From Spirochaetia bacterium (GTDB lineage: Bacteria > Spirochaetota > Spirochaetia > SZUA-6 > Bin103): a stretch of 64,000 bases of DNA. The stretch covers positions 4,448,001 to 4,512,000 of the forward strand of contig OZ241863.1 of assembly GCA_965203055.1 (NCBI GenBank), written 5' to 3'. Below, piece after piece: positions 8,720-11,311 of the stretch; the stretch's first letter is position 1, and each line of letters opens with the position of its first letter. Made by a program: the position numbers and the translations under genes. The notes beneath the pieces are model-generated. The model did no database searches and had not been told where the DNA came from. It was given only the letters and a program-made list of their open reading frames with translations.

Positions 8720-11311
8720 TTACCCGGAGGGGCCGCCCGAGTACGCCGCTCTCTCCGCAGAGCCAAGCGCTGAGAATACCGCGATAACAATACTCGTGGT
8801 TATCCGTGAGCCGCCATACCTGCTCAGTACGTCGCTGACTCCTGCCGCCTCCATCACGGCGCGAACCGGATCGCTGGCGACTATCCCGGTACCAGGAGAG
8901 GCGGGCTCCAGCAGCACTGTGGTATCGCTGTATGAGCCCTTCATGGCGTGAGAGATTGTGTTTCCACGGCGGGGCACGGGTATCATCCTGCGTCGTGCGC
9001 GCTCGATACTCTTGCGGACAGCGTCGTTAGTGTCGTCCGACCTTCCGAATCCGTAACCGACGCGTCCCCCGCGATCGCCAACTACGACCAACGTGAATAT
9101 CACATACCGCGGACTGCCACTCGCGGTCTCCGTGGTGCGCCTCCAATCCACCAGCTTCGCAAGCCATCTGTCATCTTCGATGTTGCCCGAGGAAAGGATG
9201 TTGCCGCCGCGAAGCGCTGGGGGCGCCAGCAGTGAGCGTGCCTCGCGTCGTCTTGCAACGACAGGAGTCGCCACCGAACCGGATCTAATCCGCACCAAGT
9301 CAATCGCGTCCTGCGGATGACTTCGTGGACGTAGTCGAATAACGTTGTGCCTTCCGGGTTCGGCCAACGACGCGAAGGGCCTGCGCCATAGTCCAAGCTT
9401 ATCGAAGGGGTTCGGGATGATGTGACCCTTGAAGTCGATATCGGTCGGCTGTTCGGGACAGCGTACGATGATATGCGAAGCAGATTTATCTTGAGGGACG
9501 TCCAGTTCCGTACCAAGCAGCAAGGGATATTCCTTCCCCGTACTAGTGCGGACGAATATGGAGATTCCTGGAGGCGGGAATGTGAACGAGACAACTCTCC
9601 GGTCAACTGAGAAGGCAAGTATAGCGCGCAGATATCGCGCATCCTTTTGCAAGCTAAGCCGTCCGTCAGCCGTCCTTGTCAAGTGCTTAAGATGTGTCTT
9701 TGCAAGGTTTTCCGGAATCGATTCCGCATCGAACACAGCTTGGTCACGCAAGCCTCTGAGACTTGGCCAGTACCAGAATCCGTACCGATTCAGCGCCCGA
9801 TTCTGACTCTTGACGTGTAACGAAATCCTTACCTTACCGAACGGTCCGCGTGTGGGGAGGTTCAGTGGTGCAACAAGGTCTCCGCTGGGCCGTATGTGTA
9901 CGGGAATACGTGATATGAAGTGCATGCCGTATTCCAATTTGATCTCGAGGTTGTCGCTCAGGCCACTCACGTCTCCCCTCAGAACAACGGTACGGGGTTC
10001 TGCCAGAAGCAATCCGTCGGCGTGGCGTGCGACTCTGCAGCCGTCGACTTCCAGGTGAAGGCGGGGATCAACCTGAGCATTTAAGCAGGCGTCTCCTTGA
10101 GAAATGCACAAATCCTTCGAGCTCTCAGGATACAAGACGTACGCGTTCTGGCCAAGTTGATATGCGTCCTCTCCGTTGACCCGAAATAGCCGCATCGACA
10201 CCAGAGAGATCGAACCGGCGGGAATGCGCGGTACGCTGCGTGCTTGATGATTCAGCACTCCTTTGAGCCTGCCGGAGTCGCCATCGAACAGGAGAATGTC
10301 GGCTTGTGGATCTTTGAACAGCGGCAGGGACTGCCAGTTATTTCGCTCAGTGCTAGCCTGCCAGCGAACGCAACGCGGCCAGGGAGGTGACAAGACTGTG
10401 CCCTCTTGTGGATTCAAGGGTCTCGGCGGCTGGCTGGAATTGATGTCGACTTCAAGCGATTGCCCACGAGGCGCGGCTTCAATGCACAGCTCGCCGTCGC
10501 GGAACGTCAAGCAGGGTGGACGAGGCGCCGGACCATGTCCCCCGCTCAGTTCTTTGATTTCGTGGAGGACCCGGCGTTCGAAGTCGGTTGTGGGTTGGTC
10601 CCATTCTCGGAGTCGAACGTAGACGGTAGCGTGATAGCCGGTCGAATCCTCGCCAAGTATTTTGCGCAGCCTTGTCAAGTGTGTCGGAACGTGCTCCATC
10701 GCCTGCTCTTCCCATGACTTGACTTCAGCGGTGTCCTCGCAATCCGGCAGACCGGATTTTCGTTCGACACGCAGGAACGCGTCCACAAGCGGCCTGATCT
10801 GGCTGTGGGGAACACCAGCCTGAAACAGATAGTCGCCAATCAAGTCCTGCGTGCCGGGATACTTCGGCGGGAGTATGAGGCCATGTTCATTGCAGGCGCG
10901 TCGAAATCGATCATTGAAAGAGTCGCGGCGGTTCGTCGAGATCTCCATGCCGAGTCGGTGGGAGATCGGACCATAGCTCGCGTGGTCGGTATCCGGGCCG
11001 TATTGCTCCGCAAGAGTGGTTGCGACGGCCCAGACTGCGAGGAGGGGGTATTGTACGGTCACGTAATCAAGGAAGTTATCTGTTACTCCCCCGATTTCGG
11101 CTACTAGCGCGTGCTCGACGTCGCTGCGCATCGGCTCCGGTATGTCGTGGTGACCGATGAAGGGCGATCCATGTTCCCGTGCCAAGTGCCTTCGCAGTCT
11201 CTGTTCGGCTCCGGCGAGGGCCGCCATCCGCATCTCGTAGCTGGTTGGCATCGGTGGTATTGACTGTCCCGACCATGAGCCACTGGCGTCGTGGCCAAGT
11301 GACATTACCAT
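8720..11311 (-). CDS. Large helicase-partner protein (DruH-like by position, uncertain) with a C-terminal ribosomal protein uS5-like domain; start could be 11311 or 11233
   Basis: Long ORF ending 26 bp before the helicase start. The last ~150 aa align by eye with uS5 ([41 protein letters not shown]). Confidence 0.75.
   Translation of the reverse strand: [863 protein letters not shown]

What the first reader, a model, noticed from the sequence alone, without database searches (positions are those of the whole stretch)
8720..9180. Complete but diverged ribosomal protein uS5 domain fused to the C-terminus of a defence-helicase partner protein
Seen: the last ~150 aa read [78 protein letters not shown]...[37 protein letters not shown], joined in frame by a short linker to ~700 aa of unrelated protein. 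Knowledge: this is colinear over both domains with uS5/RpsE (E. coli as recalled: [59 protein letters not shown]...[27 protein letters not shown]). The conserved rRNA-contacting loop KTVKGGR is replaced by ETASGSP and IAGG by VASD, while the fold core is kept. Inference: the domain is no longer ribosomal. It may be an integrated decoy or sensor for phage factors that target the 30S subunit, or an RNA-binding module that activates the adjacent helicase. I know of no described system with this fusion.
Basis: partly seen in the sequence, partly recalled or inferred. Interest (0 to 1): 0.93.

Follow-up and report, generated by a model that had tools for sequence, protein, structure and literature searches.

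The report
Ribosomal protein grafted onto defence protein
A sponge-dwelling bacterium carries a probable anti-virus protein whose tail end was replaced by a worn copy of one of the cell's own ribosomal proteins, and relatives made the same swap with other parts, which offers a way to test what this kind of defence protein senses.

Summary
The fusion is real. ORF 8720-11383(-) ends in both uS5 domains. A normal rpsE lies elsewhere in the genome, contigs from 4 of 4 runs bridge the junction, and 13 other proteins share the fusion. The 660-aa front is a DruH-like scaffold (weak homology evidence) that lost its native ~430-aa end. It precedes a DruE-like helicase without PLD domains, in a cassette inserted between sufC and sufD. 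In one clade every lost end is replaced: uS5 (13), ribosomal bS1 domain 2 (1), an Arg-rich peptide (4), a duplicated Ig unit (3). The uS5 groups with the host genus's rpsE and keeps its fold under purifying selection, but has lost its loop-2 residues. Most likely it is a substitute nucleic-acid-binding tail for DruH's lost ssDNA/ATP half-site (0.42). An integrated decoy for phage ribosome-targeting factors comes second (0.25). Function is untested. No paper was found. The scan earlier noted RNA-polymerase modules on another Druantia partner, not this fusion.

The parts
9278..11251 (-). DruH-like scaffold (N-terminal helical domain plus tandem Ig-like beta domains), truncated. The likely start is ATG 11251; the open frame extends to 11383.
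   Evidence: Homologues begin at this Met; pLDDT mostly above 90; covers positions 7-666 of the 1085-position family profile; Atlas lead to YjiT/STY4851; hhalign to DruH E 0.0022, probability 12.9%
9176..9274 (-). Flexible linker of about 33 aa
   Evidence: pLDDT below 50 at model residues 660-692; length varies among homologues; coordinates
8720..9175 (-). Diverged uS5 (RpsE), both domains, to the stop codon. Pfam S5 at 8972-9157, S5_C at 8753-8938, degenerate loop 2 at 9104-9139.
3792..8693 (-). DruE-like YprA-family helicase, 1633 aa. Walker A, DExH, motif VI and the MZB cysteines are intact; it ends just after the MZB, with no PLD/nuclease tail.
   Evidence: Pfam DEAD, Helicase_C, MZB; PADLOC DruE1 E 6e-167 and DruE3 E 1.6e-163; its end aligns with E. 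coli DruE residue 1716; motifs located
3756..11568 (.). Two-gene cassette inserted between sufC (ends 3755) and sufD (starts 11569), on the opposite strand and lower in GC. What looks like the old sufD start is left at the left edge.
   Evidence: sufC runs straight into sufD in 5 of 5 congeners; GC3 is 0.62-0.69 in the cassette against 0.88-0.91 in sufB, sufD and rpsE; suf names are read from the translations (recalled, not scanned)

Best explanation
This is a Druantia type III-like two-gene defence cassette. Shown: an ancestor of the DruH-like partner lost its last Ig domain and helical C-terminal domain, and a copy of rpsE from the host's own lineage was fused in their place. The copy has been kept as a folded domain while the ribosome-specific residues decayed. 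Inferred: the lost part carried the basic residues that grip ssDNA (and competing ATP) in DruH. The uS5 domain, tethered right behind the Ig domain that forms the other half of that site, acts as a prosthetic, non-specific nucleic-acid-binding tail. It would hold the single strands that the DruE-like helicase peels off phage DNA (or RNA in R-loops and transcripts). Shedding 16S-specific contacts keeps the chimera from poisoning 30S assembly.
For: The scaffold stops at profile position 666 of 1085. In E. coli DruH the ssDNA/ATP site lies between Ig5 and the CTD, and deleting the C-terminal part abolishes defence (10.64898/2026.05.12.722862, section read). By the weak colinear alignment (family 588 = DruH 650), Y670/N672 fall in the last kept domain and R1031/H1062/R1064/K1067 in the lost part. 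An 18-row clade (SH-aLRT 99) has no member seen with the native end (two are incomplete records). Of 96 homologues examined, 40 reached the scaffold end at 36% identity or more: the 19 native tails all have negative net charge (-4 to -24) and the 21 replacement tails have 0 to +20. The replacements include an S1/OB fold and a 41-aa Arg-rich peptide, which does not look like a mimic of a folded host protein. Selection on the fold: omega 0.24 on the fused branch against 0.028 in canonical rpsE; 20 of 128 sites are invariant in 8 lineages against a neutral mean of 5.4 (0 of 2000 simulations reach 20). A helicase that ends after the MZB is functional in E. coli (10.64898/2026.05.13.724758, passages).
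Against: No binding was tested. Conserved basic residues are the worst-kept class (35%, against 70% for Gly/Pro), and net charge is below the host's +18 in 8 of 8 fused domains (+2 to +15). The P0013 and P0023 tails are nearly neutral (0 and +2). Homology to DruH is weak: no PADLOC DruH hit, nothing against single E. coli sequences, hhalign probability only 12.9%; so the half-site mapping is an extrapolation, and the pocket aromatics are not evidently conserved. The bS1 piece captured is domain 2, known for protein contacts and as the ModB target. Three relatives carry a duplicated Ig unit, which is not a known nucleic-acid binder. Ribosomal proteins are basic anyway, and GC-rich DNA favours Arg.
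Confidence: 0.42

Rival explanations
1. Integrated decoy: the uS5 (or bS1-D2) domain is bait for phage proteins that bind or modify the 30S subunit. Engagement changes the DruH-like scaffold and licenses the helicase.
For: Two different 30S proteins were captured at the same position, both resembling the host lineage's copies (uS5 tree 99/99; bS1 35% to host RpsA, E 5e-9). bS1 D2 is a known phage target (PMC10931766, passages). DruH is proposed as a protein-recognising sensor (10.64898/2026.05.12.724681, section read). The domain hangs on a flexible linker and is less conserved than the scaffold in 28 of 28 distant pairs. An earlier scan note reports RNA-polymerase modules on another Druantia partner (unchecked).
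Against: The domain is only 38-51% identical to host uS5, and what is invariant is mostly Gly/Pro and core, with no obvious kept surface. No paper on a phage factor binding uS5 was found. The bS1 tail has lost both ModB-site arginine positions. Arg-rich and duplicated-Ig tails need another explanation. Among near strains the domain varies no faster than the scaffold (2-11% against 5-9%).
Confidence: 0.25
2. Structural cap or built-in cofactor: after truncation the scaffold needed a stable folded end, or a surface to close its ring or contact DruE, and uS5 supplies that without sensing anything.
For: What is conserved is the fold, not a surface. The native CTD packs on the N-terminal domain in DruH. 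Host proteins serve as defence cofactors in trans (EF-Tu in Avs7, S15 in CAST; PMC12803255, passage).
Against: A 41-aa peptide suffices in four relatives, so a folded cap is not required. The linker is long and disordered.
Confidence: 0.15
3. Ribosome tether or poison: the domain docks the protein on 30S particles or precursors, or is released during infection and blocks ribosome assembly, stopping the cell.
For: The complete two-domain fold is kept. The helicase has no nuclease tail in an 11-row clade, so an effector might be wanted.
Against: Loop 2 is degenerate or deleted, and K52, I106-G109, K126, N132 and N135 are mostly lost (their role as rRNA contacts, apart from loop 2, is recalled). 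PLD-less DruE is known and works, and type III-A defence is not abortive.
Confidence: 0.08
4. Neutral passenger on a decaying island.
For: The omega estimate includes time before the fusion, so it is biased low; under the better-fitting topology the test against omega = 1 gives only p = 0.014. One lineage stays stop-free by chance in 25-35% of simulations. Fragments of related genes lie in 7 of 13 genomes of a sister genus.
Against: All 8 lineages are stop-free in 1 of 2000 neutral runs, and site conservation exceeds every run (substitutions only, lineages found through the domain). 10 of 10 nearest homologues keep both S5 domains. Helicase motifs are intact.
Confidence: 0.1

Closest known systems
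Druantia type III (DruH + DruE), especially the PLD-less III-B-like branch
   Same: Two genes, partner first, then a YprA-family helicase with MZB. Full-length relatives of the partner are ~1090 aa with helical NTD, tandem Ig folds and helical CTD, as described for DruH. PLD-less DruE is described.
   Different: The partner lacks the last Ig domain and the CTD that hold the ssDNA/ATP residues and carries uS5 instead. The partner family is not detected by PADLOC DruH models. The cassette sits inside the suf operon, with no Zorya or ARMADA genes in it.
Bacterial ribosomal protein uS5 (RpsE)
   Same: Both domains, same fold, 48% identical to the host copy.
   Different: Fused, outside the spc operon, below the equivalog cut-off, loop 2 decayed, omega about 8 times higher.
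Integrated-decoy sensors (plant RRS1-WRKY; proposed for bacterial bNACHT11)
   Same: A diverged copy of a core host protein attached to the C-terminus of an immune protein (PMC11702601, passage).
   Different: The scaffold is not an NLR, no pathogen ligand is known, and sister tails include a plain basic peptide.
Host proteins used as cofactors: S15 in type V-K CAST, EF-Tu in Avs7
   Same: Translation proteins put to work in a defence or mobile-element machine (PMC12803255, passage).
   Different: Those use the unaltered host protein in trans; here a private, diverged copy is fused in cis.

Membership tests
Druantia type III | DruE: SF2 YprA-family helicase with MZB/DUF1998, best matching DruE models | tested here: met
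   Pfam DEAD, Helicase_C and MZB over their cut-offs; the top 7 PADLOC hits are DruE; DruE1 and DruE3 score alike, so the subtype is not fixed by score
Druantia type III | Partner gene is a DruH (STY4851/ECs_5259, YjiT) homologue by sequence model | tested here: inconclusive
   No PADLOC or NCBIfam hit for the window protein or full-length relatives. hhalign against 8 DruH sequences: E 0.0022, probability 12.9%, 530 colinear columns; reversed control E 0.61. Atlas lead 0.92 with 201 shared features for P0016, 0.86 for the window scaffold.
Druantia type III | Partner architecture: NTD, tandem Ig domains, helical CTD, about 1100 aa | tested here: not met
   Met by the full-length relative P0016. 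The window protein has NTD and Ig domains only; the last Ig domain and the CTD are replaced.
Druantia type III | Two-gene operon with partner upstream of helicase and no other dru genes | tested here: met
   same order in L030
Druantia type III | DruH ssDNA/ATP-binding residues | tested here: not met
   The CTD that bears R1031, H1062, R1064 and K1067 in E. coli has no counterpart in the window protein; the mapping rests on a weak alignment
Druantia type III | Anti-phage activity needing both genes | not testable with these tools
   Needs phage assays
Functional ribosomal uS5 | Both S5 domains and fold | tested here: met
Functional ribosomal uS5 | TIGR01021 equivalog score, free gene in spc operon, conserved loop 2 | tested here: not met
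   123.7 against cut-off 164.05; canonical copy elsewhere; loop 2 (residues 20-31, next to 16S helix 34; PMC12713390) matches the host in 22 of 96 cells
Integrated decoy | Integrated domain derives from a host protein | tested here: met
   Groups with canonical uS5 of the host genus, 99/99; the sister genus of the same family was not in the tree
Integrated decoy | A pathogen factor binds both the host protein and the integrated copy, and binding triggers defence | not testable with these tools
   No known uS5-binding phage factor found; the ModB-site arginines are absent from the bS1 tail

The most novel reading that the evidence does not exclude
A lineage of Druantia-like sensors swaps its C-terminal module for copies of the host's own small-subunit ribosomal proteins (uS5, bS1 domain 2) and uses them as baits for phage factors that take over the ribosome. 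This would be a plant-style integrated-decoy receptor in bacteria, and it would point to an undescribed class of phage proteins that attack uS5.
Probability: 0.25. Interest if true: 0.92.

Novelty: new variant of a known kind. Interest (0 to 1): 0.75.

Why it matters
What DruH does is disputed: three 2026 preprints call it an ssDNA binder gated by ATP, a protein-recognising sensor, or a scaffold. Here evolution removed the C-terminal part at issue and filled the gap in four ways, twice with host ribosomal proteins. This natural swap series makes the question directly testable. If the tails bind nucleic acid, core ribosomal proteins can be recycled as spare parts for immunity. If they are baits, this would be an integrated decoy built from a recognisable host protein in a bacterial defence system, and a handle for finding phage proteins that target uS5.

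Tried and rejected
Assembly chimera: rejected. Misplaced sole rpsE: rejected. Loss of the helicase tail as a sign of a dead system or of a need for a new effector: rejected, because PLD-less DruE works in E. coli and the tail was lost at least 5 times among 66 relatives. DNA of other fusion loci was not obtained: none in genome contigs, viral contigs, a 401-genome phylum sample or 92 genomes of the order (fragments only); metagenome contigs gave two full-length-type loci. So dN/dS between fused copies was not possible, and only the window's branch was modelled. One search showed only 40 of 246 variant sites, too few for pN/pS. No RNA holder listed. Cluster membership could not be looked up, so taxonomy of the homologues is unknown. 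A sequence search of solved structures found nothing for the scaffold; Foldseek on P0016 gave only generic Ig/Fn3 chains, and the viral library only weak Ig-rich matches. The Arg-rich tail could not be assigned to any host protein (timed out, 62, 112). No informative terminal repeats, promoters or terminators above chance. A complex prediction of scaffold with uS5 domain was queued but had not finished: no verdict. The careful tree on all 68 uS5 rows did not finish (quick tree used); a careful tree was run on 34 rows, leaving out the longest fused branches and most outgroup rows. Literature searches for the fusion; one search returned only unrelated word matches. bioRxiv supplements were not seen and could list DruH variants.

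Full report
Observation. ORF 8720-11383(-) is 887 aa from its first GTG; homologues suggest the start at ATG 11251. Its end carries Pfam Ribosomal_S5 (743-804) and Ribosomal_S5_C (816-877), both over their cut-offs, and scores below the rpsE equivalog cut-off. The AlphaFold model (mean pLDDT 91) shows a 658-residue scaffold, a disordered linker and a uS5 fold. The genome's true rpsE lies in the spc operon. One contig in each of 4 of 4 runs from 4 studies bridges the linker. All 10 hits of the first protein search (8000 candidates scored, 55-93% identity) carry both S5 domains, and P0013, P0018 and P0029 add three more (54 of 61 chosen proteins scanned).

Setting. The next gene, 3792-8693(-), is a 1633-aa YprA-family helicase whose best defence models are DruE. 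The pair sits on the opposite strand between sufC and sufD, which adjoin directly in 5 of 5 congeners checked, and has lower GC3 than its neighbours. It was not found with this query in 10 other genomes of the genus. Named genomes of the sister genus are Spirochaetia; several runs that hold the cassette are sponge or marine metagenomes.

What the scaffold is. Distant homologues are mostly 1050-1150 aa and match only residues ~55-700. One lies upstream of a 1985-1996-aa DruE-like gene with a nuclease-like tail (L030). The model of a full-length relative has a helical N-terminus, tandem beta-sandwiches and a helical C-terminus, the layout reported for DruH (sections read). Sequence evidence for DruH homology is weak: no PADLOC DruH hit, nothing against single E. 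coli proteins, a colinear profile match of 530 columns at E 0.0022 but probability 12.9% (reversed control E 0.61), and an Atlas lead to the STY4851/ECs_5259 family. I call it DruH-like. The window protein covers positions 7-666 of the 1085-position family profile, so the last Ig domain and the CTD are gone.

A clade of tail swaps. In the scaffold tree (32 rows, quick method) the window falls in an 18-row clade (SH-aLRT 99) in which no member is seen with the native end; two rows are incomplete records, one inside the clade. Of 96 homologues examined, 40 reached the scaffold end at 36% identity or more. Nineteen have the native ~430-aa tail. Twenty-one have a replacement: uS5 (13); a piece matching domain 2 of host RpsA (P0023; E 5e-9 against the genome, weak NCBIfam rpsA hits); a 41-aa Arg-rich peptide (4); or a duplicated Ig unit (3). 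Support for the order of these branches is low (81-90). The helicase tree (66 rows, FastTree) puts the window's DruE in an 11-row clade that all end just after the MZB, but such loss occurred at least 5 times. Pairing the two trees is inferred: by equal contig lengths read by eye, two members of the tail-swap clade pair with short helicases of that clade, and 7 of 8 full-length partners pair with long ones.

Origin and selection of the uS5 tail. Fused domains group with canonical uS5 of the host genus (SH-aLRT 99 with 68 rows; 99/99 in a careful tree of 34 rows); the sister genus was not sampled, so the donor is best put at the host family. One origin is not ruled out (93/90). The domain is 38-51% identical to host uS5 and less conserved than the scaffold in 28 of 28 distant pairs, though not among near strains. 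A branch codon model on 128 codons gives omega 0.24 against 0.028, with p = 3e-5 or 0.014 against omega = 1 depending on topology; the second fits better, and the branch includes time before fusion. In neutral simulations fitted to the observed identities, none of 2000 reached the 20 of 128 sites invariant across 8 lineages (mean 5.4), and 1 of 2000 left all 8 stop-free (no indels; lineages were found through the domain). Among sites conserved in canonical uS5, Gly/Pro are kept in 70% of cells, hydrophobic 56%, polar 50% and basic 35%. Loop 2, next to 16S helix 34 (PMC12713390, passages), is kept in 22 of 96 cells and is partly deleted in several lineages. The fold is maintained; ribosomal function is not.

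How it most likely works. In E. coli, DruE unwinds DNA with exposed single strands, and DruH binds ssDNA, in competition with ATP, at the Ig5/CTD interface; removing its C-terminal part abolishes defence. DruE cut after the MZB still protects, so the short helicase here is no defect. By the weak alignment, the window protein keeps the Ig half of that site and lost the basic CTD half. All 21 replacement tails have net charge of zero or more, against negative in all 19 native tails. I therefore favour a prosthetic nucleic-acid-binding tail (0.42); every functional step is inference. Loss of rRNA contacts does not separate the models, since any of them would select against entry of an 840-aa chimera into 30S. 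It does count against strong RNA binding, as does the near-neutral charge of some tails. The decoy reading (0.25) is favoured by the capture of two different 30S proteins and by bS1 D2 being the T4 ModB target (PMC10931766, passages). Against it are the missing ModB-site arginines in P0023, low identity to the host protein, and no known uS5-binding phage factor. Structural cap (0.15), neutral passenger (0.10) and ribosome tether or poison (0.08) follow.

Comparison with what is known. It works like Druantia type III, PLD-less branch. Membership is met for the helicase and gene order, inconclusive for DruH homology, and not met for the DruH C-terminus. Searches for a uS5 fusion in defence systems found nothing, and the YprA survey's main text has no mention of ribosomal proteins. 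Papers seen: 10.64898/2026.05.12.724681 (abstract, sections 5, 13, 14); 10.64898/2026.05.12.722862 (abstract, section 9, passages); 10.64898/2026.05.13.724758 (abstract, section 11, passages); 10.1101/2025.09.15.676423, PMC12713390, PMC10931766, PMC11702601, PMC12803255 (passages). No supplements were read. Roles of uS5 residues outside loop 2, the dsRBD-like nature of its N-domain, and the suf gene names are recalled, not from a call.

Verdict. A real, selected and apparently undescribed fusion, and part of a wider natural experiment in which a DruH-like protein replaced its C-terminal module, twice with host ribosomal proteins. New variant of a known kind; interest 0.75; function open.

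Noticed in passing
L023:7786-8259, L024:8019-8498, L025:7706-8185, L026:7935-8408, L027:7934-8407, L028:8037-8519, L029:7842-8414: In 7 of 13 genomes of the sister genus a stop-free ~160-aa piece of the scaffold sits at one fixed site beside an aldo-keto reductase-like gene and ftsH, with no helicase match within 8 kb. 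It matches best the duplicated C-terminal Ig unit of P0022 (61-64%) or P0282 (78%). Remnant or small free gene: undecided.
   Followed up: partly
G000:C1:2560835-2567780 (L056): A second, PADLOC-recognised DruH-like gene (E 1e-14) followed by a DruE-like frame of only 1179 aa in the same genome; it is the only such hit in 92 genomes of the order.
   Followed up: partly
P0014, P0017, P0044, P0281 C-termini: Four relatives end in the same short Arg-rich motif right after the scaffold; its source was not found in the host genome.
   Followed up: partly
window 3745-3791 and 11530-11600: The sufC stop/sufD start junction appears twice, once at each edge of the cassette, in diverged form, as if the island came in by recombination with a new sufD start. 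In run X3 one contig continues with other sequence before 11521, suggesting strains without this cassette.
   Followed up: partly
window 33001-46960: An open frame of at least 4654 codons on the + strand with Ala/Thr/Val-rich repeats, causing the strong AT skew; it looks like a giant surface adhesin.
   Followed up: no
G000:C1:2024093-2030074: A further large YprA-like helicase frame (1993 codons) in the genome.
   Followed up: no
L030:11225-17215: The tail of this full-length DruE relative matches the C-terminal nuclease region of the PADLOC ZorD1 model (E 8e-11).
   Followed up: no
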